From a virus (Duplodnaviria > Caudoviricetes), in IMG/VR virus record IMGVR_UViG_3300021387_000452: a stretch of 64,000 nucleotides of DNA; one strand, written 5' to 3'. The translations under genes and the position numbers were made by a program. Positions 31,621 through 61,974 of this stretch are shown piece after piece (within the stretch, counting starts at the first letter, position 1; every line of letters starts with the position of its first letter). The notes beneath the pieces are model-generated. The model was not told the origin of the DNA, made no database searches, and saw only the letters and a program-made list of their open reading frames with translations.

Positions 31621-32239
31621 AATGATGAATTGACACTGTGTTATCTGTTATTTCTATTTCACCAGACTTTACATTCTTTGGGCAAAAATACTCAGTTGGA
31701 TAAATTATATAGCCGAGTTGATTATTCACAGCTAGCACGTCTAAGTCATTGCTAAACATATCTCTAAAGAAAGAGTTGAATATCCATGACTTACCATAGC
31801 GCTTACCAGCTCTTGAAAGTCTTTCTCTAAACTCAAGTATGCTTTTAAGTAAGAGATCGTCTTCTTTATTACAACACCAAATGCAACCAGCGCATACAGT
31901 GTTCTCAGGATTTATTCTACTTAAAAATGGAGAATCTAAAAACTCATCCGGCAAATGCTTTATGAATTCAACATCGCAATCTACATAAATTCCGCCGTGC
32001 TGATTAAGAACATGAAGTCTTAATATGTCAGAGCAAAACGCAAATTTCTTCTGACTATACCAAAGATCATAATACTTCTTTTCTGTATCATCAAGATGAA
32101 GCTGACTGATATTGGATTCATTCCACTCAATGATTTGATAGTCACTCATGTATTTATGGAATGACTCGATGCATTTATTTGCTAGCTCAGTTTTATGATT
32201 TCCAACCCAGATATAATGTAAGATTTTAGGTATCATCAT
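31568..32239 (-). CDS. Glycosyltransferase family 32 (OCH1-like, DxD)
   Basis: IPKILHYIWVG, SDILRL, GGIYVDCDV, IHHYALSW. Confidence 0.88.
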   Translation of the reverse strand: MMIPKILHYIWVGNHKTELANKCIESFHKYMSDYQIIEWNESNISQLHLDDTEKKYYDLWYSQKKFAFCSDILRLHVLNQHGGIYVDCDVEFIKHLPDEFLDSPFLSRINPENTVCAGCIWCCNKEDDLLLKSILEFRERLSRAGKRYGKSWIFNSFFRDMFSNDLDVLAVNNQLGYIIYPTEYFCPKNVKSGEIEITDNTVSIHHYALSWRDRKRDLYGTSA

Positions 32240-32471
32240 CTATAACTTCTGTAGATAATACTTCAACTTCTGGAATAGATGGATCAATATCATAAATGTT
32301 AGACTTAATTGAAGTACACAGCTCTGTTCCTGTGCAGCCTATTACATTACATCTATCAAAGTGACACTCTACTGAAAAAATGCAGTCTGTAATGTTGCAT
32401 CTTTCAAAGAATGTCTCTTCAGCAAATGTCATATTTTTAATATTTTTTGCTACATGTTTCATAGTAAATCT

Positions 32472-32924
32472 CTAATCACTACTAATATACTGCAATACAC
32501 ACATTGATAAAGCATTGGCTTCTTTTGTAGTACCACGCTTTTGAAAGTTAGTCCCACCTCTATTATAAGCCTTCACCAAAAGTGCAACATGCTTAAATCT
32601 CTCTTGTAAATGTTTGATATATCTAGCGGCTGCTATTGTATTACATTTAATGTCATCAATATCTTCCAGTGAGCAGCCATCTGGCATGTAATGCTTATAT
32701 GTACTCGGCATGAGCTGAAAAAATCCTCTCGCGCCTTTCGAGGATGTTTTAACTCTGCATCCGCTTTCACAAACAGCTAAATAAAAATAATCAGAAGATA
32801 CTCCTTCTGATTCTAGTAAAGATGAAATCTCTTCTTGATATGGTAAACAGCTCTCCAATCTAGAATCAGCAAATGCCGAAATCGGGAAGAGAATCACCAT
32901 GAACATAATAAAAAGTTTAATCAT
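32472..32924 (-). CDS. Lytic transglycosylase (SLT) with signal peptide
   Basis: CESG, GARGFFQLMPST, AARYI, AYNRG. Confidence 0.85.
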   Translation of the reverse strand: MIKLFIMFMVILFPISAFADSRLESCLPYQEEISSLLESEGVSSDYFYLAVCESGCRVKTSSKGARGFFQLMPSTYKHYMPDGCSLEDIDDIKCNTIAAARYIKHLQERFKHVALLVKAYNRGGTNFQKRGTTKEANALSMCVLQYISSD

Positions 32925-32932
32925 ATATTCCT

Positions 32933-33547
32933 CTATTCAATGAATGATTTATTCACAAATAAGTTATACAAGTTACACCCTATGAAGTTAAACAGAATCA
33001 CTACTAGAAGCCTAGAAGTAAGACCCCATATATTATCATAGAATACTGAACTAGCTCCATAATAGAATGAATCTAGAACACAATGAAAACCACCAATAGC
33101 TAAGAATGAGAATACACATGCTATGTGTAATAAATAGCCTGATCTTAGATTATCAAATTTGGCGGCTAATGTTAATAAAAATCCAGTTATCAGAGACATC
33201 ATAATGCAAAGCAAATAGTCTGATGATAAATGGCTCAGCACTATCTTATCAGCATTGCTTACTATAGATTGATTTAGAAATCTTGATATAAGCCCAAATA
33301 AGAAAGCAGCTATCACATTAAGTATAAGAACTAAAATCAGTCTACGAAAGTCAATTGAGTCAGATAGAAATCCAGACTTATTAGTAAAAAGATTCAGATT
33401 AAGTACGCTACATGACAAAAAGCATATAGACGCTAATGCTGATCCAATCATAGAGTCATGACTTAGTAGATATAAGCATCCACCAATACCGACTACTATA
33501 CCAGCAAGTAATGACCTAGATATGACATGATCAACTGGATCTATCAT
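32933..33547 (-). CDS. Formate/nitrite transporter (FNT)-family membrane protein
   Basis: About 6 TM segments; LAGIVVGIG, LNLFT, GFHCVLD, NFIG. Confidence 0.65.
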   Translation of the reverse strand: MIDPVDHVISRSLLAGIVVGIGGCLYLLSHDSMIGSALASICFLSCSVLNLNLFTNKSGFLSDSIDFRRLILVLILNVIAAFLFGLISRFLNQSIVSNADKIVLSHLSSDYLLCIMMSLITGFLLTLAAKFDNLRSGYLLHIACVFSFLAIGGFHCVLDSFYYGASSVFYDNIWGLTSRLLVVILFNFIGCNLYNLFVNKSFIE

Positions 33548-33629
33548 CTTGTACTCTCCTCATATAAAACAAATGCCTATGCAACATATAAATATACATC
33601 GCATAGGCATTCATCTTAATCATCCCAAT

Positions 33630-34532
33630 CTAATCATCTACTCTCTTTAATATAATGCGAACATATGTTGGTTTGTTTGGTGCTAGACACGGGCCTCTTG
33701 TTTTCCAAGGTGGCTTATCAAGATTCACCAAATCACCAGTAATACGACCAAGCTCAAAATCTAACTCATCATAATTGTTAAATACACCAATAATCTTAAA
33801 CTTACTTGGATCATGCTTGGTCAAATATGTAATAGGGACACCGATATAACCATCATAATCAAACGGAATATCAGCTACCTTATTACAATTTATCGCATCA
33901 AAATTCACATACTTCTGATGAATGTTTGGGTCATACTGAACAGATAGATCCAAACTGTAAAGTCTATTAACATCTAAATTTGTGAATGTTGTAATTGAAG
34001 CCACCTTTACATACGAGACATTATCTCTCATATACACCTTAGACTTTGGGTCATTAGCATATTCCATAGGAACTTCAAACTCACAAGTTTTATTTGCAAT
34101 GTAGCCAAGTCTAATGTGATCTTTAATAAGCATAGAAGATACTTGCTTATAACAGATACAATTATTAGTTCCCCAAATAATAAACTTCTTACTAAGCTTA
34201 TCTAGCAACTCAAGAAATTGTCTGAATAGGCTAAACGGTGGATTAGTTACAACAATATCACAATGGCTGTAATTATCTATTGCTACTTCACTTAAACAAT
34301 CAACTCCGTCTTGAAGAGATGTATAAACCAAATCTTCAATTAGCCCATTGGCTTTTAACTCTGAAAAGTATTTGACGAAAGCTGAATCTTCAGTGTCGCA
34401 TGGACAATAGATTGTTTTGCCTTTGAACTGATCAAGATAATGATCGAGCTCAAACTTAACATCTGTATATAGAGTATAAAACTCATCCTTCTTGGATGAG
34501 CGTGCTACAGATAATCGTTGTCTTGTAAACAT
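33630..34532 (-). CDS. Adenine-specific DNA methyltransferase, EcoRI family
   Basis: KKDEFYT, IYCPCD, DIVVTNPPFSLFR, DIPFDYDGYIGVPIT. Confidence 0.88.
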   Translation of the reverse strand: MFTRQRLSVARSSKKDEFYTLYTDVKFELDHYLDQFKGKTIYCPCDTEDSAFVKYFSELKANGLIEDLVYTSLQDGVDCLSEVAIDNYSHCDIVVTNPPFSLFRQFLELLDKLSKKFIIWGTNNCICYKQVSSMLIKDHIRLGYIANKTCEFEVPMEYANDPKSKVYMRDNVSYVKVASITTFTNLDVNRLYSLDLSVQYDPNIHQKYVNFDAINCNKVADIPFDYDGYIGVPITYLTKHDPSKFKIIGVFNNYDELDFELGRITGDLVNLDKPPWKTRGPCLAPNKPTYVRIILKRVDD

Positions 34533-34562
34533 ATCTCTAAACAGATAAACAGGTTAAACAAG

Positions 34563-34635
34563 TGCCCCAAGAAAGACTCGAACTTCCGACCGCCGCATTA
34601 CAGGTGCGATGCTCTACCAACTGAGCTATTAGGGC
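34563..34635 (-). tRNA. tRNA-Thr(TGT), C33 variant
   Basis: Cloverleaf; stem TCGCA/TGCGG, loop CCTGTAA. Confidence 0.9.
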
Positions 34636-34638
34636 AAA

Positions 34639-34727
34639 CGAAGAGAGTAGGATTCGAACCTACGGTACGGTGTAACCCGTACGACTGAATAGCAATCAGT
34701 TGCCTTCAACCACTCGGCCATCTCTTC
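34639..34727 (-). tRNA. tRNA-Ser(GCT)
   Basis: Long variable arm; ACTGA-TTGCTAT-TCAGT. Confidence 0.92.
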
Positions 34728-34731
34728 ACGA

Positions 34732-34815
34732 TGTCAGCAGAGAGACTCGAACTCTCAAGCCTTTCGGCGGCAGCTTCTAAGACTGCTGCGTTTACCCAAG
34801 TTTCGCCATGCTGAC
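34732..34815 (-). tRNA. tRNA-Leu(TAG)
   Basis: GCAGT-CTTAGAA-GCTGC; long variable arm. Confidence 0.92.
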
Positions 34816-34820
34816 ATAAA

Positions 34821-34907
34821 TGGGCGTGGAAGGACTCGAACCTTCTTCTCCGAATGCATCTCTGCATTCCTCGCGAGAGGTGTTTTACCAAGATAAACTA
34901 CACGTCC
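34821..34907 (-). ncRNA. tRNA-like RNA with non-canonical anticodon arm
   Basis: Acceptor, D and T arms present; centre is CCTC-TCGC-GAGG plus AATGCA-GAGA-TGCATT. Confidence 0.7.
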
Positions 34908-34909
34908 TA

Positions 34910-34981
34910 TTGTGAGTATTGGATTCGAACCAATTCTATGAGTGTATGAGGCTCATGTGCTAACCATTACACCAACTCACA
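34910..34981 (-). tRNA. tRNA-Met/Ile2(CAT)
   Basis: Loop CTCATAC; C31-A39 mismatch. Confidence 0.8.
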
Positions 34982-34988
34982 TTATAAA

Positions 34989-35089
34989 TCTGGCTGCTGG
35001 GATTCGAACCCAAAACCTCTGATCCCTTAAATTAATTTAAGGTGACTATCTCATCAGTGTTCTGTTATCATGTTTTAAACTACAGCCCA
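34989..35089 (-). ncRNA. tRNA-like RNA with a hairpin inserted in the anticodon loop
   Basis: CTGAT/ATCAG stem encloses GAGATAGTCA plus CCTTAAAT-TA-ATTTAAGG; T-arm TTGGG-TTCGAAT-CCCAG. Confidence 0.7.
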
Positions 35090-35093
35090 TAAG

Positions 35094-35165
35094 ATGGAGA
35101 ATATCAGAATCGAACTGATGTCTATAGAATGCAAATCTATTGTTCTCCCGCTGAACTAATTCCCC
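35094..35165 (-). tRNA. tRNA-Ala(TGC)
   Basis: G3-U70; ATAGA-TTTGCAT-TCTAT. Confidence 0.92.
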
Positions 35166-35279
35166 ATAAAAGACGGAGGTGTTATTTAGATAGCAGTTCT
35201 ATTTCAACTACAGGGCACACACCTGAAACCTCTTTGTTGGTTAGCCTCGCCAACATTGCCCGATTTGAACGGGACTTGA

Positions 35280-35352
35280 CGGGAAATGTAGGACTCGAAC
35301 CTACGACTCCGGACTTAACAGGACCGTGTTCTACCGACTGAACTAATTTCCC
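35280..35352 (-). tRNA. tRNA-Asn(GTT)
   Basis: CGGTC-CTGTTAA-GTCCG. Confidence 0.9.
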
Positions 35353-35356
35353 ATAA

Positions 35357-35429
35357 TAGCGGGAGCTGGATTCGAACCAACGATCTCTGGGTTATGGGCC
35401 CAGAATGTTAACCACTACACTATCCCGCA
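35357..35429 (-). tRNA. Initiator tRNA-fMet(CAT), C33 variant
   Basis: Unpaired 1:72; GGG/CCC in the anticodon stem; loop CCCATAA. Confidence 0.88.
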
Positions 35430-35517
35430 ATAAGATAAATAAACACCTGTTTAACGATACAGGCAATCGGGGTTATTTAGTCCTCAAACAATCGGACATG
35501 TCGTATCCCAACGGCAA

Positions 35518-35589
35518 TAGCGGATGACAGAGTCGAACTGTCTTAAAGAGTTTATAAGACTCACGTAATAACCGGTATACGAATCCGCT
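35518..35589 (-). tRNA. tRNA-Ile(TAT)
   Basis: GAGT-CTTATAA-ACTC; acceptor AGCGGAT/ATCCGCT, A73. Confidence 0.85.
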
Positions 35590-35594
35590 GTAAA

Positions 35595-35669
35595 TCGGAG
35601 TGGCGAGACTTGCACTCACAAACCTCCCGGACCCAAACCGGGCGCTCTACTAAATTGAGCTACACTCCG
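35595..35669 (-). tRNA. tRNA-Pro(TGG)
   Basis: CCCGG-TTTGGGT-CCGGG; C1-G72. Confidence 0.92.
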
Positions 35670-35674
35670 ATAAA

Positions 35675-35747
35675 TACACCATGAAAGACTCGAACTTTCG
35701 ACCCACGGCTTAGAAGGCCGTTGCACTTCCAACTGTGCTAATGGTGC
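35675..35747 (-). tRNA. tRNA-Arg(TCT)
   Basis: ACGGC-CTTCTAA-GCCGT. Confidence 0.92.
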
Positions 35748-35875
35748 AAATAGATATTATCATAATCTCACGATTATTAACACCCTAATAATCCACTTAG
35801 AAAAACACTAAACATACTCACTTTCATTGTTGCCAATTCCAGTGAGTTCTATATAGGTAACCAGTCTATATAGAA

Positions 35876-35959
35876 TGCTTCAACAGAGACTCGAACTCTG
35901 ACGCCACTTAAGGCAATGGCTTCTAAGACCATTATGTCTACCAATTTCATCACTGAAGC
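35876..35959 (-). tRNA. tRNA-Leu(TAG), second divergent copy
   Basis: ATGGT-CTTAGAA-GCCAT. Confidence 0.9.
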
Positions 35960-35963
35960 ATAA

Positions 35964-36036
35964 TGGAGAAGTGTAGGAATCGAACCTACGACCTACGGAT
36001 TACTCTCCGCAACTCTACCACTAAGCTAACTTCCCC
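35964..36036 (-). ncRNA. tRNA-like RNA with 6-nt anticodon loop and 8-bp acceptor
   Basis: GCGGA-GAGTAA-TCCGT; GGGGAAGT/ACTTCTCC; normal D and T arms. Confidence 0.7.
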
Positions 36037-36211
36037 AAAAGGAGCGGGCCAAATTTTATTTCACAACAATACTTAACCCTAGCAGAACATGACATGAAAA
36101 TGGAAGAATGTTGATTCTCGACAACATTGATCTCATTTATATTATACATAACTTAGAAAGAGAATGCAACTAAATTATGCATAATCTTATCATCTCATTT
36201 AAAGATGATAA

Positions 36212-36284
36212 ACAGGCCACAGAGGATTCGAACCTCTATCCTCGGTTTTGGAGACCGAGATGCTGAACCATTACACCAGCAACC
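36212..36284 (-). tRNA. tRNA-Trp(CCA)
   Basis: TCGGT-CTCCAAA-ACCGA. Confidence 0.92.
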
Positions 36285-36286
36285 TA

Positions 36287-36360
36287 TGGTTCCGTGAACA
36301 GGAATTGCACCTATACTGGCGGAGTCAAAGTCCGCTGTTCTACTATTAAACTATCACGAA
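36287..36360 (-). tRNA. tRNA-Gln(TTG)
   Basis: GCGGA-CTTTGAC-TCCGC; encoded CCA. Confidence 0.9.
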
Positions 36361-36364
36361 GTAA

Positions 36365-36436
36365 TTCCGGGAGCTGGAATCGAACCAACATTAACTGGGT
36401 CAGAGCCAGTCGTCCTAGCCATTAAACGATCCCGAA
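36365..36436 (-). tRNA. tRNA-Gln(CTG)
   Basis: ACTGG-CTCTGAC-CCAGT. Confidence 0.9.
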
Positions 36437-36574
36437 GTAAAGGCTAAATTTTATCTCACGACAATATTTAGCCATGAGGAGCAAAAATTAGAGCAATCAG
36501 TTTGTAGTGCTGTCTTGTTCTAACATATTTAATATACATAATCAAATCAGCAATTTAACTAAATTGATATGTAT

Positions 36575-37270
36575 TTTGACTATCCCCAGGAGCATGAGAA
36601 TTCTTGATTTACATCTACTCTCATTCGAGAACTCAGCTTTATTCCTTCACGAGATAATCTTATAAATCTGATGCCTCACCTTAATTGGCAATCCGGATTA
36701 TCACCCACTAGTAAATGACCTCTAGAAAGTCTCCTAGCTGTTAAAGGACTACTCGTTCGAATAGTAGGTGTTCCAAGTACAGAATTACCTATATCACTAT
36801 AGGTTGCCATAATCCTAAGCGGCCGTGTACTTAAGTCCCATACAGGAATCATGGTCTTTTTTTTGAATCTCATGTTTGAGCATTATTCAAATCACAGAAT
36901 AAGAGGCTTAGAGATTACTCTATAAATATCTTACTGTGTGCTGTTACGCCAAAGTGGAGTGCAATCCTTACCAGTTACGGGGTGATTGCCTACTTCAATC
37001 GGAGTGACCAATAACCTATATACCATTATACTTCACTCTGTCAATTTGGTATATAACCTGATCCGCCTTAATCAGCCGTTGCACTTCTCGTAATGCAGTG
37101 TTTAGTTCTGCCCGAGGTTTGCAATTCTGTAAGATTTATCGCGAATAAATCTGGAATATGTGACCTTTAAGCGTTCTACATCTTGGTAGATATAGAATCA
37201 GGATATATGCTATTGGCGATTGCCACACTCATTAAGGATGGGTGCTTCTAACCCAACCACAATAAGATTT
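36575..37270 (-). ncRNA. Large structured ncRNA (GOLLD/ROOL-like candidate) with a 23S rRNA H43/H44-like domain
   Basis: ~700 nt with no credible ORF inside the tRNA cluster; GTTGGGTTAGAAGCACCCATCCTTAATGAG and GGCGTAACAGC; long-range stems. Confidence 0.7.
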
Positions 37271-37272
37271 AA

Positions 37273-37360
37273 TACCAGTGGAGAGACTCGAACTCTCAAG
37301 TAACGCCATGTTACGCGCCGATTTTGAGTCGACTGCCTTTGCCGATTTGGCTACACTGGC
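37273..37360 (-). tRNA. tRNA-Leu(CAA)
   Basis: GTCGA-CTCAAAA-TCGGC; long variable arm. Confidence 0.92.
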
Positions 37361-37364
37361 TCAA

Positions 37365-37446
37365 TGCGAGAAGTGGGAATCGAACCCACAAGCCAAATGG
37401 CGTAGCATTTTAAGTGCTATGTGTTTACCAATTTCACCATTCTCGC
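37365..37446 (-). tRNA. tRNA-Leu(TAA)
   Basis: TAGCA-CTTAAAA-TGCTA. Confidence 0.92.
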
Positions 37447-37451
37447 AAAAC

Positions 37452-37547
37452 CATAGTATGAAAGGCACGACTCTCACGTACTGCCAAGCTCCAATTGCTA
37501 CCCCATCCCGGTTTAGACAACTGGTTTGCCAAGCTCCCATACTATAG
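37452..37547 (-). ncRNA. Candidate small RNA
   Basis: Terminal stem TATAGTATG/CATACTATG; internal direct repeat GGAGCTTGGCA x2. Confidence 0.45.
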
Positions 37548-37555
37548 TTAGTTAA

Positions 37556-37719
37556 CAAGTCATTTCCATTACCATACGTTAGGACTTTTTCAGGCTCTAC
37601 GTTCTGTTACTCTATTACATTCAACCGTCTTACGTATATGCACCTTGTGCACCAAATACATACAGTGGGCGATGTGTATTCTTTACCATGCAGACTAGCT
37701 CTTCGTAGCAATGACTTGT
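37556..37719 (-). ncRNA. Candidate ~165-nt RNA
   Basis: 10-bp terminal stem ACAAGTCATT/AATGACTTGT, between tRNA genes. Confidence 0.45.
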
Positions 37720-37721
37720 AA

Positions 37722-37799
37722 TGGAAAATGAAAGAATCGAACTTTTCATCTAACGACCCAATAAAGGGTCGGTTATTTTACCAGTTAAACTAATTTTCC
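37722..37799 (-). ncRNA. tRNA-like RNA with extended anticodon stem
   Basis: GGAAAAT/ATTTTCC acceptor; CGACCC-TTTATT-GGGTCG arm; bulged T stem. Confidence 0.7.
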
Positions 37800-37804
37800 A
37801 TAAA

Positions 37805-37976
37805 TGAGAAATGTAGGATTTGAACCTACTCCTTTCATGGCATCTAATATAATTCCTATAATTGTGTTAATCCTGAACTTATAGAGAAGTGACTCTCTAC
37901 TCGGGAATTGAACCCGACCAATTATAGGTATTAGTTTATAGCTTCATGAATATTCTACCAACTAAACTAATTTCAC
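37805..37976 (-). ncRNA. Two-headed tRNA-like RNA (circularly permuted tRNA nested in the anticodon arm)
   Basis: Outer D/T/acceptor arms, long connecting helix, inner T-arm, capped acceptor and D-arm. Confidence 0.75.
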
Positions 37977-37980
37977 ATAA

Positions 37981-38064
37981 TGGAGAGGGGAAGATTCGAA
38001 CTTCCGAAGCCTTTCGGCGCAGAATTTACAGTCCTGACCTGTTGACCGCTTAGGTAACCTCTCC
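37981..38064 (-). tRNA. tRNA-Tyr(GTA)
   Basis: CAGGA-CTGTAAA-TTCTG; long variable arm. Confidence 0.92.
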
Positions 38065-38091
38065 AAGCAAATTAAATAGATATCTTTCTTT

Positions 38092-38136
38092 TATTCAGTT
38101 GTCAAAGATCTTAGAACTATCTATTAGTTAGTTCTA
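38092..38136 (-). promoter_or_regulatory. rRNA-type boxA with upstream boxB-like hairpin at the head of the tRNA operon
   Basis: TAGAACTA/TAGTTCTA hairpin followed by GATCTTTGACAACTGAATA. Confidence 0.7.
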
Positions 38137-38411
38137 TTGAATCTTGCTTTTCGTAAACTGTCTATAGGCTTTCATCCAAGCTGGATTAAAACCATCAAGA
38201 ACTATCTTTGATTTAAAGTCGTTTGTCGGGACGACATCTTTATAGATATTTGAAATTGTAGAAGCATCTTCTTCAGAAAGAAGATTAAGATCAAGCCCAC
38301 CAATATAGACATCATTTTCTTTAATGACGAAGACCTTACGAGATTTCGTACCATTGGATGATGTATAGGTAAACTCTTTAATCATAGCAAACTCTCCTTT
38401 TGTTCTCTAGT

Positions 38412-38478
38412 ATTGGAAGGAACCATTCCCTCCAATCTATGAGATCTATATACCAAAAAGTTTCGCAGTCGTAAACAA
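38412..38478 (-). promoter_or_regulatory. Cassette copy 7
   Basis: Leader ATTGGAGGGAA-TGG-TTCCTTCCAAT; TTTACG/TATAGA. Confidence 0.75.
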
Positions 38479-39307
38479 GTTTTTGCAAAAATTTCACTTT
38501 TTCACCGGAACGTATGTAATCGTTTGTTTTGGCTCAAATTCTTCTGCACAACATTCACATAAGCAATCTTCATAAAACATACTTTCACTATAGGTCTGAG
38601 TAACACCATTTACTCCAACAAAGCCATCTTCACATTTATAGACTGACGTGGAAGTTTCAAACCATCTATGTTTATCAACATAAAGACCACGAGCTACTAC
38701 TTCTAAGTCAAAGTCTTCTTCAAATGAATATAAAGACCAGTACTTTGTGCTGTTCACTTTCTCAATTACTTCTGCTACTTTCATGATTATTCTCCTTATT
38801 TAGAAATTAAGATGAACCACTCATCTTAAGGTGTATACTCTCTTATGATCTCAGACTTTATTATAGTCTTGATCAATTGCCATCTATTCTGCTTAAGATA
38901 GTTACTATTTGCTATTGTCTTTAAAGCTTCCTCTTCTGATAAGAAAACTTTTGGAGAACTATTCCACCAATCATAGCCAACATCATCGCCACGATATTCT
39001 ATCCAATCGGATGATGAAGCAGTAACAAGTGGAATTAGAATAGTGTAATGAACTACGTCTACCATATAACACTCTCAATGTAAATGCTTTTTAAGAAAGT
39101 CCTCAAACTTAAGACATGATTTATCTTTGCTACTAATATGAATTATGTTATCACAGTGATGACACACAATACCTTGATCTCTGACTATCTCTTCTGTAAA
39201 CATTGATAAGCTAAACTCTTTTCCACAATATGGACATTTTGATTTGAATTGATGCTTTTCATAGTATTCTTGTTTAGTCATGATCAACCTCCAACTAAGT
39301 AACCAAA

Positions 39308-39384
39308 CTAAGGAAGTATTTCGTTCCTTAGCTTTATGAGTTACTTATAAGCCAAATCAAAAATCATGTAAACAAAAATCACCG
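39308..39384 (-). promoter_or_regulatory. Cassette copy 8 (variant loop)
   Basis: CTAAGGAA-CGAAATAC-TTCCTTAG; TTTACA/TATAAG; CGGTGATTTTTG. Confidence 0.7.
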
Positions 39385-39749
39385 AACAAAATTGCTAATG
39401 CTCAAGTATGTCTTCCACTACACGGTCTATCGTGTCCATACCAAATGGAGAGATATGGTAAACAGCTTGTTCTAAACCATAGATCTCATTTCTAAACGAG
39501 TCTATAGTTGCGGTAATCGTTCCATAACAACAGTCTTCATACTTCTTAGCAATTCTTTTCACGTGAGGTGTAAGAGCTTCTTTTAATTCTTTAACTGTTT
39601 TACACTTTAGAAATGGAGCTCTTAAGTCATCATACTGCTTATTAACGCTATATTCCAATGAGCTATAAACACCGTACTTCATAAGTAACCTCCATGAAAA
39701 GAATAGGCACATGTAAATAAAATACACGCGCCGTAGTAGTCATTTAATC

Positions 39750-40373
39750 TTAATAAGCTATATCGTCAAATAAAACAGGGATCTTAGATTTTAAATCGTC
39801 AAGTAACTTACGTGATATAGATACCATTTGTGGATGGGCCCGCGAATCACACCGTAAACGGAAAAAGTGTCTCCACTCTCTTATATTGCCAGTAACAACA
39901 ATTTCAGTTGCAAGTGATGTTGGTAACACACCTCTTGCAATTTCAGGTTTTGCGCCATTTGCTAATAAACCAAAGTATGCATGTTCAGCTACCATACATG
40001 TCTCATGCCATATATGGTAAGTAACAGGATCTAGACAATCACCAGGCGAAATAACTTTTATCTCATTTCCGAACTTATCTTTTGAATAATTACAATATCG
40101 CGTACTCTCTTGTGCAAAGCTGAATAAACGATGTCTTACAATCTCATGTGAGATACCACGGTCAACAATGAACTTCACTGATAATTGTGTATGCTCAAGC
40201 ATTGCCTCATGCCCGCGCTCACATAGCATCTTACAAAATTTAATACATGAATCATCTGTGATGTTATTCTCTGACTTGTAGCAAACTCTTCCAGCTCGCT
40301 CAATGTCTTTAAGAATCTTAATTTGATCAGATAAATCTGTTAGAATTTCATACGACTGTTGAATTACTTTCAT
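39750..40373 (-). CDS. thyX: FAD-dependent thymidylate synthase
   Basis: GHEAMLEH, RGISHEIVRHR...SFAQESTRY, ARGVLP, LRCDSRAHPQM. Confidence 0.95.
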   Translation of the reverse strand: MKVIQQSYEILTDLSDQIKILKDIERAGRVCYKSENNITDDSCIKFCKMLCERGHEAMLEHTQLSVKFIVDRGISHEIVRHRLFSFAQESTRYCNYSKDKFGNEIKVISPGDCLDPVTYHIWHETCMVAEHAYFGLLANGAKPEIARGVLPTSLATEIVVTGNIREWRHFFRLRCDSRAHPQMVSISRKLLDDLKSKIPVLFDDIAY

Positions 40374-56892: not shown

Positions 56893-58095
56893 TTACTCAC
56901 TAGCCTTAAAATTATACATAGGTTTTATGACTTCAACAATATCAATAGTGTCTTTCACTAATTCTATAATCTCTTCAGCCGGTTTGTACGCCATCGGAGA
57001 TTCATCCAGAGTGGATTCATTTACAGAAGTAGTAAATATACCTTCCATTGAGTGTTTAAAATCATCCATTGCAATCGAGTTCTTTGCCTGTTTACGAGAC
57101 ATTAACCGACCAGCACCGTGTGGCCCTGAACAGTTCCAGTCTTCGTTTCCTTTACCGATTCCTATAATAGAACCATCTCGCATGTTTAATGGAATGATTA
57201 CTTTCTCACCTTTATTACAACGAATAGCTCCTTTACGAATTATGTTATCTTCAAAGTCAATATAATTGTGAACAGTGTGGAACACTTCAACAGGTGTAAC
57301 TTTTAAGAATTCCAAGATTCGCTGCGCAATCTCTTCACGATTCTTGACAGCGTATTCCTGACATATCTTCATATCATGTAAATAATTATCTCTGTGAGCT
57401 CCTTCCAAGTAGCATAAATCATCTGGGATCTTTTGTGCTGAAGCAAACTTTTCTCGTAATTCACGAATAGCATCTTTGATCTCTTTGTGACGTAAAGCTT
57501 CTTTATACTCAGCAATCAACTGTTCAGTTTTAGCTTTTATCTCTTCAGACTTAACATTGCAATCTTCAATTGCCATCGCCTGATAATATCTGCAAACCTG
57601 CTGGCCTAAGTTACGAGATCCGGTGTGTATAACTAAATAAACATCACCTGATTCTGATTTGTTCAATTCTATGAAGTGATTGCCTCCGCCCAATGAACCA
57701 ATTGATGCATGCAAGTGTTCAACATTTCGCAACTCACGTCGCATAAATAATTTGTCTAAATCATCAAAGCCAATAGTATGAGTCACATCATTTGCTGACA
57801 TTCCTGACGGAATATTTTCATGGATGAATTTGTCTAATTCTGCCAATCGCTCATCAGATAAATTCAATTTGCCCATATTGACTACATACATTCCGCAGCC
57901 CACGTCGACGCCTACTAAGTTTGGAACTACTTTATCTCCAAGGTCAGCAGTAAATCCAATAACACAGCCTTTACCTGCATGAGTGTCCGGCATAATACGA
58001 ACTTTTGCGTCTCTAAAAACGTTAACTGACATCAGCTGTTTTAACTGATCATATACTTCTTGTTCTACAGTCTTTGCAAATATTTTTACACTCAT
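56893..58095 (-). CDS. rtcB: RtcB RNA ligase
   Basis: MPDTHAGKG, VGVDVGCG, GSLGGGNHFIE, HTGSR, HNY, SGPHGAGR, DESPMAYK. Confidence 0.95.
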   Translation of the reverse strand: MSVKIFAKTVEQEVYDQLKQLMSVNVFRDAKVRIMPDTHAGKGCVIGFTADLGDKVVPNLVGVDVGCGMYVVNMGKLNLSDERLAELDKFIHENIPSGMSANDVTHTIGFDDLDKLFMRRELRNVEHLHASIGSLGGGNHFIELNKSESGDVYLVIHTGSRNLGQQVCRYYQAMAIEDCNVKSEEIKAKTEQLIAEYKEALRHKEIKDAIRELREKFASAQKIPDDLCYLEGAHRDNYLHDMKICQEYAVKNREEIAQRILEFLKVTPVEVFHTVHNYIDFEDNIIRKGAIRCNKGEKVIIPLNMRDGSIIGIGKGNEDWNCSGPHGAGRLMSRKQAKNSIAMDDFKHSMEGIFTTSVNESTLDESPMAYKPAEEIIELVKDTIDIVEVIKPMYNFKASE

Positions 58096-58124
58096 AGGAC
58101 CCTCCCAAAGCATAAGCTATTTTG

Positions 58125-58292
58125 TTATAGTGAAAAAACTACTGAGTCGTCTTCAACAAAAACGTCGTCTTTTTCAACAACGCCATCATCTTTTATCGCC
58201 TCGCCGTATTCAGAAAATGATAAGACTGAATAACGAACTTCAGCATCTTGATCAGCGTGTGAAAGTAATTCCATCAAATCAGCAACTCGCAT
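58125..58292 (-). CDS. MTVKEL-family protein
   Basis: MRVADLMELLSHADQDAEV. Confidence 0.6.
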   Translation of the reverse strand: MRVADLMELLSHADQDAEVRYSVLSFSEYGEAIKDDGVVEKDDVFVEDDSVVFSL

Positions 58293-58311
58293 TTTGTATC
58301 TCCAGTGAATT

Positions 58312-58387
58312 ATTGAATGGAACCATTCCATCCAATTTATGAGAATCTTATAAACAACTATAAATTTGTTGTAAACAAAAATCACCG
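58312..58387 (-). promoter_or_regulatory. Cassette copy 16
   Basis: Half terminator next to the upstream stop; spacer ACAAC...GTTGT. Confidence 0.8.
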
Positions 58388-58390
58388 AAT

Positions 58391-59695
58391 TTATTTCCAA
58401 CTTTCCATTAAACTAGAAATGGCATCGTCAACTTTAGACGCGTGAGAATTATTTTGGTTATTGTAGTATTCATCAATCTCAGCAATTCTTTCGTCTCTTT
58501 CCTTAGACTCAAGAACTTCATATTTGCATCTTGTAAGAACGGTTTGCTTCTGACTGTGATATTCATCATGAGCTTTAATTTTACCAGACAGCTGTATGGT
58601 GGCGCCTTTGTCTAATGGGTACCACTGAGTATAGTTTGCACGATCATCTTTTACTGTAAATTCTAAGCCAGTTCCAGTAGACCACTTAAAAATATTTCCG
58701 TTGTCATCCATGAACAGATGGATATGAGAACTACCAAATTGAGTATCATATGTATGAGTATTCATATAGGTAACTTTAACAGAGATTTTATCACCTACAT
58801 TACCAACATACTCGCTGGATTTTTTATCTGAATTCTTAAGATCAATGAGCCTTTTATATTCACTCTTACGATATGATGGAATTAACGAAGCGAGAAATCC
58901 AAAGTGTCTTGCTGTACAATATCCAGCATCTATGATCTGTCTAAGATTAAATAGGTAACTAGATCTATTCAACTCTTCTTCTGATAAGCAGTGAATCCAT
59001 TCAATAGCATCAACTGCTTCACTCTCAACTCTATTTCTATCATATGCGTCCATGATGAATTTCCATGTAGCATTCATACTACTGGAAGGCTCAAATCCAT
59101 ATTGATCAATAAGTCTCTTTGCAGCTGAAACGATGTCCACTATATCATATGTTCTAATACCGTTAGACTCAAAGAATTCACCAGCGTATTTTTCTCCATC
59201 TATAATGGATTTTAGATCAGAGCTTTTCTCTTCTAACACTCTCATGTATTCACTTACTTCAGCAATAAGATTACCATCCAAACCAGATGTGAATTCTTTT
59301 ACGCATGAGGTGCCAACAACTTTTCTTTCACCAGACTCATTTTCTAATACGGTGATTGAATTGCGATAGACATTCTTATGACAATGATCACAATGAAAAT
59401 CAGTGTCTTTATATTGAGCAATCAAGCTAGCATCGTCGAAGTAGCACTGAACAATTCCATCTTTTCTTTGAACTAAGCCAAGTGAACGCCAACCATTGAG
59501 TTTAAATGTAACGTCAAGATTAAGATCAACGAGACTGACTTCAAAATTATTACCATCAACACTAACAAGCTTGGTATATGGGTCGCTTACATTAAACGTG
59601 TATGGCACTTGATTCTTTTCACATTTCTTAGTGATGCGACTAATTTTTCTGCAGATATCTTTAGCCATATTATTAAGAATCGTGTAAGTTGCCAT
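58391..59695 (-). CDS. Large early protein with CxxC and C-terminal OB-fold-like domain
   Basis: CDHCHK...VGTSC; YVGNVGDK...IKAHDEY...QTVLTRC. Confidence 0.55.
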   Translation of the reverse strand: MATYTILNNMAKDICRKISRITKKCEKNQVPYTFNVSDPYTKLVSVDGNNFEVSLVDLNLDVTFKLNGWRSLGLVQRKDGIVQCYFDDASLIAQYKDTDFHCDHCHKNVYRNSITVLENESGERKVVGTSCVKEFTSGLDGNLIAEVSEYMRVLEEKSSDLKSIIDGEKYAGEFFESNGIRTYDIVDIVSAAKRLIDQYGFEPSSSMNATWKFIMDAYDRNRVESEAVDAIEWIHCLSEEELNRSSYLFNLRQIIDAGYCTARHFGFLASLIPSYRKSEYKRLIDLKNSDKKSSEYVGNVGDKISVKVTYMNTHTYDTQFGSSHIHLFMDDNGNIFKWSTGTGLEFTVKDDRANYTQWYPLDKGATIQLSGKIKAHDEYHSQKQTVLTRCKYEVLESKERDERIAEIDEYYNNQNNSHASKVDDAISSLMESWK

Positions 59696-59714
59696 GTTCT
59701 GTTCTCCTTGAGTT

Positions 59715-59806
59715 ATCAAATGGAACCATTCCATTTGATTTATGAATCTCTTATAAACTAGACTGAGAACTGTGTAAAATAAAATCACCATATAAATGGT
59801 GATTTT
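59715..59806 (-). promoter_or_regulatory. Cassette copy 17
   Basis: Leader ATCAAATGGAA-TGG-TTCCATTTGAT. Confidence 0.85.
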
Positions 59807-60239: not shown

Positions 60240-60250
60240 GCTATTTTCCT

Positions 60251-61420
60251 TTATCGGTGATATTTAAGAAGAAAATTTGGAGATACGCATTTGAAGTTCT
60301 GCTGACCATCTTGTGAATAGAAAACAAACCCTTCAATATCGCCATCATCGATTGCAGATTTACATGAATCTACGTAATCAACAATTTCTTCTACTGATTT
60401 TGGAATTTTATAATCATAGTCATAGACATGAACGTGTGGTAGATCTCGATCATCACAAACCTTAATCATTTCTTTAATCGGTAATCGTTTACCATCAAAC
60501 CAAATATGAAATACCACAAAGTCGTGTTTATTGTTATTCAATGAGTAATTACGTTTTTGTACTTTGTCACCGTAAGTCTCACCTTGAATTGCAACAGTCT
60601 TTAAACCATGTACAATTTTTAGAGACTTAAGCAGTTCTTTCATATTGTATTTAGCACCTGATTCAGCCCAGATATTATTTTTGAAATAGTTTCCGCCATC
60701 TGAGTCTTTCTCAGGATTCTTAATTACATTATGTGAACCAACTAAATAATTATCCTTCTCATCAAGAATAAATGATGTAGATGCACCGTCAACTTTCTCT
60801 GTAATAATATATGTATCGTCTGAACCTAGCAATTGTGGAAGATTCTGAATGCGCTCAGAGCCAGTTTTCGGCAACCACTCCGGCCACTTACATTTTGCCT
60901 TGTCCTTTTTATGAACAAAGATCTTTGAGAGTAGCCAACGAGCAAATCTGAACTTCATTGCAAATCTAATAATAGAGCTATTAAAGAATTTTTTATGACG
61001 ATCCATTGCACGTTGAAAATCATTTACTTTTTGTTTTGGCTGATTCTCACATACTGGCTCAGGATCATACTTCTCTACGTGAAGTTTATCAGTAACAAAG
61101 TCACCTTCTTTGCAGCCTTTCAGTTCTGGGAAATCAGACAATGGTAAGATTAGTCCCTGACTAACAGTCTTACACATCTTCTGCGTTAAAACGCGATACT
61201 TACGTTTTTCCATAAATGAAAAACGCTCGTCATTAGAAGGCAGAAGAGAGTCAATTTCAAAATAAACTACAAGGTCACCAACTTTAATTTCTTTTGGTGC
61301 AACACACCACCACCCAAGAACTTTACAGCTGTGTACACGATCATATCCATCAAGGTCTTTTGCCTCAGCTACTTTAACAATGTAAGCAAGTTCGCGTTCA
61401 TTAGTTTTAGGGTTTAACAT
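60251..61420 (-). CDS. ATP-dependent RNA ligase (DRB0094/Rnl2-like)
   Basis: VVYFEIDSLLP, SQGL, ERIQN, TEKVDGAS, QGETYG, EGFV, FKCVS. Confidence 0.88.
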   Translation of the reverse strand: MLNPKTNERELAYIVKVAEAKDLDGYDRVHSCKVLGWWCVAPKEIKVGDLVVYFEIDSLLPSNDERFSFMEKRKYRVLTQKMCKTVSQGLILPLSDFPELKGCKEGDFVTDKLHVEKYDPEPVCENQPKQKVNDFQRAMDRHKKFFNSSIIRFAMKFRFARWLLSKIFVHKKDKAKCKWPEWLPKTGSERIQNLPQLLGSDDTYIITEKVDGASTSFILDEKDNYLVGSHNVIKNPEKDSDGGNYFKNNIWAESGAKYNMKELLKSLKIVHGLKTVAIQGETYGDKVQKRNYSLNNNKHDFVVFHIWFDGKRLPIKEMIKVCDDRDLPHVHVYDYDYKIPKSVEEIVDYVDSCKSAIDDGDIEGFVFYSQDGQQNFKCVSPNFLLKYHR

Positions 61421-61974
61421 GTTTAATTCTCCTTTACTGAAGTCCGTCTTCAAAGTTACAGATACTAACGTTTATTTCTGTTGCCAAATCTTCTACCGCT
61501 TTTCTAGCAATTCGTAATTTATCGTAAAGACCATCACTAATATAATGTGAACTAATAGCACAATTCAATCTTAATAATGAAGACAATAAATCAGAACATA
61601 ATCTCTTTGAATCCATTAAACAAGCTATCTCGTAAGCATCTTTAATTTGCTTGTTCTGCATATTACTAATCTCCTATTGCGCCATAAGAAGCTGATCAAC
61701 GTCAGCTACGTAAGCCCATTTGAGATCTGCAATTTCTATGATGCAGTACCCGTTATCAACATCACCAACAAATGGTAGCCATTCATCACATCGAGTATAG
61801 ATCATCTCGTCACCACAAGCAAACCCGCCTTCTTCCAAGTCTGGCATACCAAGAATGAATTTGTCATAGCCATATTCACCGCCATAGGTAACATGTATTA
61901 AGCAAAGATCTTCTTTTTCAGGGAGATGATTTTTACGATCGTTCCATTTCATTTTTAAGTCTCCTTTTAAGTTT

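What the first reader, a model, noticed from the sequence alone, without database searches (positions are those of the whole stretch)
34821..37799. Set of tRNA-like RNAs with intact elbow and acceptor but rebuilt anticodon arms
Seen: four more elements are interspersed with normal tRNAs. 34821-34907 has a 4-bp arm with a 4-nt loop plus a GNRA-capped 6-7-bp hairpin. 34989-35089 has an 8-bp hairpin inserted in the anticodon loop. 35964-36036 has a 6-nt loop GAGTAA and an 8-bp acceptor. 37722-37799 has an extended stem with loop TTTATT. T-loops and D-stems are preserved and the changes are well paired and concentrated in the anticodon arm, unlike random pseudogene decay. Inference: non-decoding tRNA mimics (decoys for anticodon nucleases, synthetases or uncharged-tRNA sensors), natural tRNA-scaffold carriers, or intron-containing tRNAs sealed by the phage RtcB.
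Basis: partly seen in the sequence, partly recalled or inferred. Interest (0 to 1): 0.75.

Follow-up and report, generated by a model that had tools for sequence, protein, structure and literature searches.

The report
Conserved non-decoding tRNA-like RNAs in phage array
A gut-phage tRNA array holds four tRNA-derived genes that cannot read codons; two belong to conserved families kept by selection, and RNA data show one is cut like a real tRNA, which frees a neighbouring RNA that becomes a circle.

Summary
All four elements are real and lie where stated, on the minus strand of a 3.5-kb phage tRNA array. They are not one class.

- **A (34821-34907)** has 6 family members. Ten base pairs changed on both sides. 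An invariant palindrome, CUCGCGAG, sits where the anticodon loop should be.
- **D (37722-37799)** has 11 family members. It derives from a tRNA-Asn-like gene. Its anticodon stem is 2 bp longer, and its loop varies in sequence and length (6-8 nt). Normal tRNAs in the same arrays keep their loops invariant.
- **B** is 95% conserved in a relative whose neighbouring gene is only 70% identical at third codon positions. It is only weakly tRNA-like.
- **C** combines a Lys-like core, an Ala-like acceptor and a 6-nt loop. Its counterpart in one relative has decayed, so it may be a young pseudogene.

RNA-library contigs from three runs (two studies) hold a 275-nt circle. Its ends are the base after D's discriminator and the base before tRNA-Leu(UAA). 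D is therefore cut like a tRNA and marks the end of the neighbouring RNA.

Best reading: these are selected, non-decoding tRNA bodies recognised by the tRNA-processing enzymes. A decoy role remains untested. The intron reading is not supported.

The parts
34562..38065 (-). Whole tRNA/small-RNA array. It holds 17 canonical tRNAs, the four elements, one 'two-headed' tRNA and six long conserved spacers.
   Evidence: ARAGORN; Rfam; spacers conserved in relatives
34821..34907 (-). Element A: class-II-type tRNA-like RNA, one of a 6-member family.
   Evidence: Rfam tRNA 41.4 bits. Own covariance model scores the family at 83-110 bits and nothing else above 45. Ten pairs changed on both sides, 0 of 500 shuffles reach this.
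34870..34877 (-). Invariant palindromic octamer CUCGCGAG in A, at the position of the anticodon loop.
   Evidence: Identical in all 6 members, whose overall identity goes down to 76%. It is the only copy in the window.
34853..34868 (-). Variable-arm hairpin of A (6 bp; capped by GAGA in this copy).
   Evidence: Four of 6 pairs changed on both sides across the family. The loop sequence is not conserved.
34989..35089 (-). Element B: weakly tRNA-like RNA between tRNA-Ala and tRNA-Met.
   Evidence: Rfam tRNA 26.3 bits, below threshold. Orthologues at L115:1715-1815 (95%) and L107 (93%, with a diverged 3' end) keep the Ala-B order. Methylase third codon positions are only 70% identical to L115.
35025..35042 (-). 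Hairpin CCTTAAAT..ATTTAAGG inside B's central loop.
   Evidence: Read from the sequence. Conserved in L107. L115 has one change that breaks the basal pair.
35964..36036 (-). Element C: near-perfect cloverleaf with an 8-bp acceptor helix and the 6-nt loop GAGTAA (36000-36005).
   Evidence: Rfam 51.8 bits. Fold z-score -4.6. Anticodon stem and T arm resemble tRNA-Lys(CUU/UUU) of relatives, and the acceptor resembles the phage tRNA-Ala. A decayed relic lies in L083. An RNA-library contig from a different study is identical over 35964-36026.
37722..37799 (-). Element D: tRNA-Asn-derived tRNA-like RNA, one of an 11-member family. Lengthened anticodon arm at 37751-37772, loop at 37759-37764.
   Evidence: Rfam 44.8 bits. 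Own model scores the family at 89-103 bits and the next hit at 67. Five pairs changed on both sides. The stem is 2 bp longer than in the sister tRNA-Asn. The loop is hypervariable.
37447..37721 (-). 275-nt spacer between D and tRNA-Leu(UAA), found as a closed circle in RNA libraries.
   Evidence: The joint 37721->37447 ('goes back 275') appears in contigs of 3 RNA runs from 2 studies, with no mismatches. Depth is 31.7 against 2-9 for neighbouring contigs in run X3. The circle's ends were checked against the tRNA ends.
37365..37446 (-). tRNA-Leu(UAA). Its G1 (37446) follows the last base of the circle, so this is the RNase P-type site.
   Evidence: Rfam 64.2 bits; sequence
60251..61453 (-). ATP-dependent RNA ligase resembling Naegleria NgrRnl (N-terminal OB fold plus nucleotidyltransferase domain). 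Candidate enzyme for sealing 5'-P/3'-OH ends.
   Evidence: Pfam PF09414 and PF21189; PDB 5cot, E 1.4e-24
56893..58113 (-). RtcB RNA ligase, which joins 3'-P and 5'-OH ends. Context only: it points to RNA repair.
   Evidence: Pfam PF01139, E 2e-63

Best explanation
The four elements are tRNA-derived genes transcribed within a phage tRNA/small-RNA array. They keep the parts of a tRNA that the maturation enzymes read: the acceptor/T-arm helix, the elbow and the discriminator base. They have lost a working anticodon arm. They are therefore excised like tRNAs but cannot decode.

A and D belong to two conserved families held by purifying selection.
- In A, the anticodon arm is replaced by a 12-nt segment carrying the invariant palindrome CUCGCGAG.
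- In D, the anticodon stem is 2 bp longer and its loop is free to vary.

Their demonstrated role is as processing punctuation. An RNase Z-type cut directly after D's discriminator and an RNase P-type cut before tRNA-Leu(UAA) release the 275-nt spacer. The spacer is then sealed into a circle. The cuts should leave 5'-P and 3'-OH ends, so the phage's NgrRnl-like ligase is the likely sealing enzyme.

B is a conserved inter-tRNA RNA with only vestigial tRNA features. It would be released by its neighbours' processing whether or not it is itself recognised. C is a lineage-specific derivative that may be on its way to decay.

Shown: family membership, covariation, conservation above the neutral level, and the positions of the circle junction.
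Inferred: which enzymes act, that the elements do not decode, and any additional function in trans.
For: 1. These are tRNA homologues, not chance matches: Rfam E 2e-6 to 3e-9 for A, C and D.

2. A family (6 members):
- 94.9% of cells are paired. Ten pairs changed on both sides, in the acceptor, variable and T stems; 0 of 500 shuffles reach this, and slid controls give 0-2.
- A is 89-97% identical across relatives in which methylase third codon positions are 68-94% identical. This is comparable to the neighbouring tRNA-Met and tRNA-Leu(UAG) and above tRNA-Ser(GCU).
- The order Met-A-Leu(UAG)-Ser-Thr is conserved.

3. D family (11 distinct members):
- 92% of cells are paired and 5 pairs changed on both sides. 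G1:C72 becomes C1:G72 in L116 and L117.
- The family model separates members (89-103 bits) from the nearest tRNA (67 bits).
- Alignment with the sister tRNA-Asn(GUU) of L081 shows the arm is 4 nt longer, which adds 2 bp.

4. Opposite conservation pattern to real decoders. All nine tRNA-Arg(UCU) keep the loop CTTCTAA and all seven tRNA-Trp keep CTCCAAA despite very different bodies. D keeps its body but has at least 8 different loops of 6-8 nt.

5. The circle junction 37721|37447 lies exactly at D's discriminator+1 and Leu(UAA) -1. It is seen in 3 RNA runs from 2 studies, at 3-10 times the depth of neighbouring contigs.

6. No CCA is encoded after any tRNA of the array that I read. This is the substrate type that RNase Z cuts, by established knowledge.

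7. In the predicted fold, the circle's two ends sit 4 nt apart between two helices.

8. In 8 of 11 family members D is followed directly by a long non-tRNA spacer. In three lineages that spacer is the ~800-nt conserved RNA.

9. B is 95% identical to L115 while methylase third positions are 70% identical.
Against: - There is no RNA evidence for A, B or D as mature molecules. For C there is only one short contig in an RNA library, which may contain DNA. The evidence comes from assembled contigs, not reads, so 5' ends, CCA addition and abundance are unknown.
- The junction was not checked in the DNA runs, so a tandem duplication in a DNA variant is not formally excluded.
- Punctuation alone does not explain why CUCGCGAG in A is invariant. 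A has no long spacer next to it.
- Normal tRNAs flank other spacers equally well, so a dedicated non-decoding body is not strictly needed.
- A is truncated by an ORF insertion in L115, so it is dispensable there.
- Some D members have a 7-nt loop with UAU or CAU, and ARAGORN calls them tRNA-Ile/Met. Decoding by those members is not excluded.
- The arrays are mosaic. High identity of B or A between two phages could partly reflect recent exchange rather than constraint.
Confidence: 0.6

Rival explanations
1. Decoys or sponges. The elements mimic tRNA shape so as to bind, and divert or block, host tRNA-targeting defence nucleases (PrrC/RloC, VapC, colicin-type, PARIS or retron effectors) or other tRNA-binding proteins. 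This could hold in addition to the punctuation role.
For: - The phage carries RtcB and an Rnl-type RNA ligase, which suggests pressure from RNA-cleaving defences.
- D's loop is hypervariable on a conserved body, as expected in an arms race.
- A keeps an invariant loop-position motif that could act as bait.
- The apparent ancestors are Asn for D, Lys-like for C and possibly Ser(CGA) for A. Published work names these tRNA types as anticodon-nuclease targets (PMC10264068 for Ser and Lys; the rest is from my own knowledge).
Against: - No test of binding or protection is possible with these tools.
- A decoy should resemble its target's anticodon loop. D's loops no longer resemble Asn (GUU), and C's loop has lost U33 and the Lys anticodon.
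- Published phage counter-measures are cleavage-resistant tRNAs that still decode, not non-decoding mimics (PMC10264068, PMC11464382, PMC11555353).
Confidence: 0.25
2. Pseudogenes. The elements are inactivated tRNA genes drifting toward loss, retained only because the array is young or recombines often.
For: - C's counterpart in L083 has lost its T arm and acceptor 3' strand. C was found in only one other strain.
- B's copy in L107 has a diverged acceptor and T arm.
- A is truncated in L115.
- Array content differs even between phages whose methylase is 95% identical.
Against: - A and D show many compensatory changes and are kept in 6 and 11 distinct lineages.
- A and B are 89-97% and 95% identical where third codon positions are 68-94% and 70% identical.
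- D's changes are confined to the loop, and A's octamer is invariant. Both are the opposite of random decay.
Confidence: 0.1
3. Unusual decoders. D (and perhaps C) are working tRNAs with 7- or 8-nt loops, acting as anticodon-shifting ANN-codon tRNAs, frameshift or quadruplet readers, or a UAA suppressor.
For: - ARAGORN reads L103 D as tRNA-Met(CAU) and L107 D as tRNA-Ile(UAU), with a 5-bp stem and 7-nt loop.
- Functional tRNAs with 8-nt loops and with 6-bp anticodon stems exist (PMC7609411).
- The central triplets (UAU, CAU, UGU, AGU) mostly end in U, as in tRNAs that read ANN codons.
Against: - The helix between the elbow and the loop is two layers longer than in the sister tRNA-Asn. The review read here lists no functional tRNA with more than 6 bp in this stem (PMC7609411).
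- Positions 37 and 38 are U and G rather than a purine at 37.
- Loop length is 6, 7 or 8 nt in different members.
- A single acceptor/discriminator body would need several different synthetases.
- Canonical tRNA-Ile(UAU) is already present in the same arrays.
- The window's ORFs read normally under table 11.
Confidence: 0.1
4. Intron-containing tRNAs. The inserted hairpins are removed and the halves are sealed by the phage RtcB.
For: RtcB is encoded 19 kb away. Relatives do carry a group I intron inside a tRNA gene of the array.
Against: - Rfam finds no intron in the window array.
- Removing B's hairpin leaves an 11-nt loop without U33. A and C are shorter than a normal arm, not longer.
- No RNA contig joins across any of the four elements.
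- Protein-dependent tRNA splicing is not known in bacteria or phages (my own knowledge).
Confidence: 0.03

Closest known systems
mascRNA / MALAT1 3'-end tRNA-like element, and the mitochondrial 'tRNA punctuation' model (from my own knowledge; not tested as family membership)
   Same: A tRNA-shaped module with a non-functional anticodon arm is recognised by RNase P and RNase Z. This defines the end of an adjacent non-tRNA RNA. The module itself is released as a small RNA that does not decode.
   Different: Those are eukaryotic nuclear or organellar systems. There is no sequence relation: Rfam gave no mascRNA hit at E<=1. Here the released neighbour is circularised, and the modules form phage-specific families derived from phage tRNA genes.
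Phage T4 stable RNAs C and D (species 1 and 2) in the T4 tRNA gene cluster (from my own knowledge)
   Same: They are non-tRNA stable RNAs co-transcribed and co-processed with phage tRNAs. They have partly tRNA-like ends and no known function.
   Different: They are longer (about 120-140 nt) and not full cloverleaves. No homology was tested. My literature search found no open paper describing them.
Phage tRNAs with anticodon-loop substitutions that evade host anticodon nucleases (PMC10264068; T5 tRNA-Lys against PARIS, PMC11464382; tRNA-Tyr against retrons, PMC11555353)
   Same: They are phage tRNA-array genes whose anticodon loops depart from the host consensus. They occur alongside tRNA-targeting defence and RNA repair.
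   Different: Those tRNAs keep a 5-bp stem, a 7-nt loop and their anticodon, and they still decode. A, C and D change the arm's length or loop size, and D's triplet is not conserved.
Natural non-canonical tRNAs: tRNA-Sec, tRNA-Pyl and mt-tRNA-Ser(UCN) with 6-bp anticodon stems; yeast mt-tRNA-Thr(UAG) with an 8-nt loop (PMC7609411)
   Same: The anticodon arm departs from the 5 bp + 7 nt rule while the L-shape is kept.
   Different: Each of those has a fixed anticodon and compensating changes elsewhere. D has 7 stacked layers, a variable loop and no compensating shortening. A has only 12 nt in place of the usual 17.
Circular RNAs made by ligases: archaeal and metazoan tRNA-intron circles (RtcB), and archaeal C/D-box sRNA circles made by an ATP-dependent Rnl (PMC9014305)
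   Same: A small structured RNA is excised by tRNA-related processing and sealed end to end by a protein ligase.
   Different: Here the circle is an inter-tRNA spacer of a phage operon, not an intron. Its ends coincide with RNase Z- and RNase P-type sites. The responsible ligase has not been identified.

Membership tests
Canonical decoding tRNA (Rfam RF00005) | Score at or above the curated Rfam threshold (29 bits) | tested here: met
   A scores 41.4, C 51.8 and D 44.8 bits. B scores 26.3 bits and does not reach the threshold.
Canonical decoding tRNA (Rfam RF00005) | 5-bp anticodon stem and 7-nt loop with U33 and a purine at position 37 | tested here: not met
   - A: a 12-nt segment with no conserved helix.
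- B: a central loop of about 29 nt that contains a hairpin.
- C: 6-nt loop GAGUAA without U33.
- D: stem 2 bp longer, loop of 6 or 8 nt in the window copy, U37/G38.
Canonical decoding tRNA (Rfam RF00005) | Anticodon loop is the most conserved part among orthologues | tested here: not met
   D's loop is the least conserved part of the molecule, whereas Arg, Trp, Gln and Ala tRNAs of the same arrays keep their loops. A does keep an invariant motif, but it is not an anticodon loop on a stem.
Canonical decoding tRNA (Rfam RF00005) | 7-bp acceptor, G18G19 in the D loop, T-loop TTCRANY | tested here: met
   Met for A (one A:C mismatch) and D. C has 8 bp. B fails: 5-bp acceptor and no GG in the window copy.
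tRNA pseudogene | Unconstrained decay: stem mismatches accumulate, with no compensatory change and no conservation above the neutral level | tested here: not met
   Not met for A, D or B. Inconclusive for C: it has a decayed relic in L083 but an intact, identical copy in a second strain.
Group I intron-containing tRNA gene | Group I intron (RF00028) inserted in the anticodon loop | tested here: not met
   No RF00028 hit in window 33500-39000 at E<=1. The same search does find such introns in relatives (L083:2701-2915 and L093:8792-9007).
Protein-spliced (bulge-helix-bulge) intron-containing tRNA | Removing the insert restores a 5-bp stem with a 7-nt loop; spliced junction seen in RNA | tested here: not met
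   By reading the sequence, no excision restores a canonical loop. No skipping joint lies over the elements.
Y RNA-like YrlA (RF02553) and tmRNA tRNA-like domain | Rfam threshold score; tRNA-like domain attached to a long Ro-binding stem, or to a tag reading frame | tested here: not met
   YrlA matches reach only 20-33 bits against a threshold of 69, and they overlap ordinary tRNAs. ARAGORN finds no tmRNA in the window.
tRNA-like processing module ('punctuation', as with mascRNA) | Endonucleolytic cut directly 3' of the discriminator, generating the 5' end of the neighbouring RNA | tested here: met
   Met for D only. The circle's 5' end is 37721, the base after discriminator A37722. Not tested for A, B or C.
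tRNA-like processing module ('punctuation', as with mascRNA) | Cleavage carried out by RNase P and RNase Z; CCA addition to the released module | not testable with these tools
   Requires read-level ends or enzyme assays.
Aminoacylatable non-decoding tRNA (identity elements outside the anticodon) | G3:U70 with A73 (Ala), G-1:C73 (His), or a long variable arm (Ser/Leu) | tested here: inconclusive
   - C's helix has G:U as the third pair from the end, followed by an unpaired A, as in the phage tRNA-Ala. The same helix can also be read as G-1:C73.
- A has a long variable arm and A73, but G3:U70 in only 2 of 6 members.
- Charging itself was not tested.

The most novel reading that the evidence does not exclude
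The array is an operon of translation-apparatus look-alikes. It would combine tRNA bodies without working anticodons (A, C, D, the neighbouring two-headed tRNA and further odd members in relatives) with structured spacer RNAs. One spacer is turned into a circle by RNase Z and RNase P cuts plus the phage's own Rnl5-type ligase. That circle carries a 29-nt motif, fully conserved in a relative, that looks like the ribosomal sarcin-ricin loop. Together these RNAs would act as decoys or sponges against host RNA-targeting immune nucleases. This would be a new class of RNA-based counter-defence and the first phage-encoded, ligase-made circular RNA.
Probability: 0.15. Interest if true: 0.9.

Novelty: new variant of a known kind. 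Interest (0 to 1): 0.68.

Why it matters
Phage tRNA genes are usually discussed only as decoders, either for codon supply or for escape from anticodon nucleases.

Here, two families of tRNA-shaped RNAs are kept by selection although they cannot decode. One is shown to act as a cutting signal that frees a neighbouring RNA. This means annotation pipelines that discard 'pseudo' or 'undetermined' tRNAs in phage arrays may be discarding functional RNAs.

It also offers a natural bacterial-virus counterpart to the tRNA-scaffold designs used to express and circularise RNAs. It gives testable candidates for tRNA mimicry in the phage-host conflict. The circular RNA, if confirmed at read level, would be an unusual product for a phage.

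Tried and rejected
- **GenBank phages:** no relative of the array. D has no match, and C gives only generic similarity of about 80% to Lys, Asn and Phe tRNAs.
- **IMG/VR:** the methylase patterns found nothing. Exact-core scans for A and C returned 8 and 5 loci, all chance matches inside unrelated GC-rich DNA. ThyX relatives L001-L003 carry arrays, but none of the four elements is in them.
- **GTDB genomes:** the D pattern gave only chance hits or ordinary tRNAs, so there is no host clue.
- **No whole genome** is held for this window.
- **Alternative long-arm fold of A** (the minimum-energy fold): only 4 of 7 and 5 of 7 of its pairs hold in L082 and L108, with no compensation.
- **B's CUGAUGAG** looked like a hammerhead ribozyme core. 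There is no GAAA in the required position and no Rfam hit, so this is rejected.
- **Rfam on the circle alone:** nothing.
- **Promoter/terminator scan:** not above the shuffled expectation for promoters, so uninformative.
- **Pfam on 40 ORFs:** no CCA-adding enzyme, synthetase, kinase-phosphatase or aminoacyl-tRNA transferase.
- **RNA contigs:** they give no usable cover of A or B, so nothing can be said about their expression.
- **Other joints:** the chimeric joints with foreign letters between the two sides (for example 35383/38024) come from other organisms' tRNAs and were ignored.
- **Literature searches:** no report of these families or of a phage spacer circle. The library is incomplete, so this is weak evidence of novelty.

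Full report
**Setting.** The window is a 34-37% GC phage-like contig. No whole genome is held for it, and it has no close relative among GenBank phages. Almost all genes lie on the minus strand.

From 38065 down to 34562 runs a dense array. ARAGORN finds 17 normal tRNAs and three 'tRNA-???'. The Rfam tRNA model finds the same genes plus a weak fourth match. None of the tRNAs I read has an encoded CCA. The phage also encodes RtcB, an RNA ligase of the Naegleria NgrRnl type, ThyX and several DNA methylases.

**Observation.**
- A: 87 nt, 41.4 bits.
- C: 73 nt, 51.8 bits.
- D: 78 nt, 44.8 bits.
- B: 101 nt, 26.3 bits (E 0.029). This is below the family threshold, and ARAGORN does not call it.

A, C and D are clear tRNA homologues. 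The described loops and hairpins are all present. C and D fold far better than shuffled sequence (z -4.6 and -3.3). A and B do not (z -1.3 and -1.9).

B is the weakest of the four. Its acceptor is 5 bp with an offset, its T stem is 4 bp, and the window copy has no GG in the D loop.

**Relatives.** Homologues of the methylase next to the array led to contigs from ruminant-gut metagenomes at 76-95% protein identity. A degenerate DNA pattern for D found further contigs in JGI metagenomes. Array content differs greatly even between close relatives.

**Element A.**
- Orthologues lie in L097, L081 and L084 in the same order, Met-A-Leu(UAG)-Ser-Thr. More distant members are in L082 and L108, at 76-78% identity.
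- On the 6-member alignment, 94.9% of cells are paired. Ten pairs changed on both sides, in the acceptor, variable-arm and T stems. No shuffle out of 500 reaches this, and sliding the partners gives 0-2 such pairs.
- A covariance model built from the family scores its members at 83-110 bits and nothing else above 45.
- A is 89-97% identical across phages whose methylase third codon positions are 68-94% identical. This is similar to or better than the neighbouring genuine tRNAs.
Two of its pairs break in L082 and L108 without compensation. The alternative long-arm fold fares no better.
- What is invariant is the palindromic octamer CUCGCGAG, which occurs once in the window. The hairpin's GNRA cap is not conserved.
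- Conclusion: A is a selected class-II-type tRNA-like RNA, with a 12-nt segment where a 17-nt anticodon arm should be.

**Element D.**
- Eleven distinct members were found.
- The cloverleaf is 92% paired, with five pairs changed on both sides. L116 and L117 add a G1:C72 to C1:G72 swap.
- The family model gives 89-103 bits. The next best hit, at 67 bits, is a tRNA-Asn(GUU) of L081. Aligned to it, D has the same acceptor, D arm and stem start, but 4 extra nucleotides that add two C:G pairs below the loop.
- The loop differs among members in both sequence and length: TTTATTG, TTCATTG, CTTTATTG, TTTGTCGG, TTAGTTTG, TTTGTTG, TAGTCGAC and GGTGTG.
- In the same arrays, every tRNA-Arg(UCU), Trp and Ala, and all but one Gln(UUG), keeps its loop unchanged while its body diverges.
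- D therefore shows the reverse of the constraint on a decoder.

**RNA evidence.** The RNA runs laid were metatranscriptome libraries: two from the window's own two samples and two from other studies. Assembled contigs of four of them were laid on 32000-40000.
- In three runs from two studies, a closed contig of 275 nt plus k-1 joins 37721 back to 37447. There are no mismatches.
- Its depth is 31.7 in X3, against 2-9 for neighbouring contigs of the same run.
- On the minus strand, 37722 is D's discriminator A and 37446 is G1 of tRNA-Leu(UAA).
- The circle is therefore exactly the spacer left by an RNase Z-type cut after D and an RNase P-type cut before Leu.
- By established enzymology, such ends are 5'-phosphate and 3'-OH. 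These suit an ATP-dependent ligase such as the phage's NgrRnl-like enzyme, rather than RtcB. This step is inferred.
- The predicted fold brings the two ends within 4 nt of each other, between two helices.
- Caveats: these are contigs and not reads. RNA libraries can contain DNA. The junction was not checked in DNA runs.

**Elements B and C.**

B has orthologues in L115 (95% over 101 nt, with the same acceptor and T arm) and in L107 (93%, 3' end diverged), both directly after tRNA-Ala. With methylase third positions at 70% identity, B is constrained. No compensatory change tests its fold, and its tRNA features are vestigial. Its neighbours' processing would release it in any case.

C's anticodon stem and T arm resemble tRNA-Lys of relatives. 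The loop reads GAGTAA where Lys has CTCTTAA. Its acceptor resembles the phage's own tRNA-Ala. A contig from another study is identical over 63 nt of C while differing at 4 flanking positions. However, the counterpart in L083 has decayed. C may be a young pseudogene, or an Ala- or His-chargeable non-decoder. The data do not decide.

**Context of the array.** The long spacers are themselves conserved among relatives:
- 35167-35277
- 35749-35874
- 36037-36211
- 36437-37272

In 8 of 11 family members D is followed directly by such a spacer. The array thus looks like an operon of small RNAs punctuated by tRNAs and tRNA-like bodies.

Relatives hold further odd members: 6- or 8-nt loops, truncated arms, a tRNA gene with a group I intron, and a tmRNA.

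**Comparison with known systems.** The closest analogue in how it works is a tRNA-like processing module such as mascRNA, or mitochondrial tRNA punctuation. Among phages, the closest are the T4 stable RNAs of unknown function (from my own knowledge). Published phage 'escape' tRNAs keep a normal arm and still decode (PMC10264068, PMC11464382, PMC11555353). Known non-canonical tRNAs reach 6-bp stems or 8-nt loops but have fixed anticodons (PMC7609411). Ligase-made small circles are known in archaea (PMC9014305). I found no report of these families or of a phage spacer circle, but the paper library is incomplete.

**Verdict.** The 'non-decoding, selected tRNA-like RNA' reading holds for A and D and probably for B. 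It is doubtful for C. The decoy idea is untested and the intron idea is unsupported. The firmest mechanistic point is that D is processed like a tRNA and delimits a neighbouring RNA that becomes circular.

Noticed in passing
window 37447-37721 (minus strand): The 275-nt spacer between D and tRNA-Leu(UAA) appears as a closed circular contig in three RNA libraries from two studies. It has the highest depth in the region. Its ends match RNase Z- and RNase P-type sites exactly. It matches no Rfam family, and in the predicted fold its two ends sit close together.
   Followed up: partly
window about 37464-37492 (minus strand); L083:2593-2621; L107:1484-1512: A 29-nt motif inside the circle (GGAGCUUGGCAGUACGUGAGAGUCGUGCC) is 100% identical in an otherwise unrelated spacer of L083 and 97% identical in L107. 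Its AGUACG..GAGAG core resembles the ribosomal sarcin-ricin loop, a likeness recalled from memory. No statistical test supports this.
   Followed up: partly
window 35167-35277, 35749-35874, 36037-36211, 36437-37272: The long inter-tRNA spacers are conserved at 75-93% in several relatives. The array therefore carries further non-tRNA RNAs. The 836-nt spacer directly follows a D-family member in L083, L107 and L108 (L114 is the same sequence as L108).
   Followed up: partly
L083:2676-2990 and L093:8792-9007: Relatives carry a group I intron (59 bits). In L083 it lies inside the anticodon loop of a tRNA gene of the array. No such intron is in the window's array.
   Followed up: partly
L002:7668-8034: A relative's tRNA array ends with a phage-encoded tmRNA (tag peptide ANDDIELAIAA).
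   Followed up: no
L093:9313-9398; L117:6454-6527; L082:3879-3946 and L093:8694-8763; L097:204-279: Relatives hold more tRNA-like genes with odd anticodon arms: a Leu-like gene with an 8-nt loop, a 6-bp stem with a 6-nt loop, and truncated arms. The phenomenon is common in this phage clade.
   Followed up: no
window 37805-37976 (minus strand); L083:502-674: The adjacent 'two-headed' tRNA is a tRNA body with an insert of about 100 nt that contains a second T arm. It is 91% conserved in L083, and Rfam scores it there as a tRNA with a large insertion (39.7 bits).
   Followed up: no
window 56893-61453: RtcB, an unannotated 482-aa protein and an NgrRnl-like RNA ligase lie together, forming a possible RNA repair or RNA sealing module. 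No kinase-phosphatase was found nearby.
   Followed up: partly
L082:412-1944: The ThyX gene of a relative is interrupted by an intein (Thy1 - Intein_splicing - Thy1).
   Followed up: no
L115:2016-2974: Two small ORFs are inserted into the array of a relative. They truncate element A to its last 22 nt and disrupt the preceding tRNA-Met.
   Followed up: no
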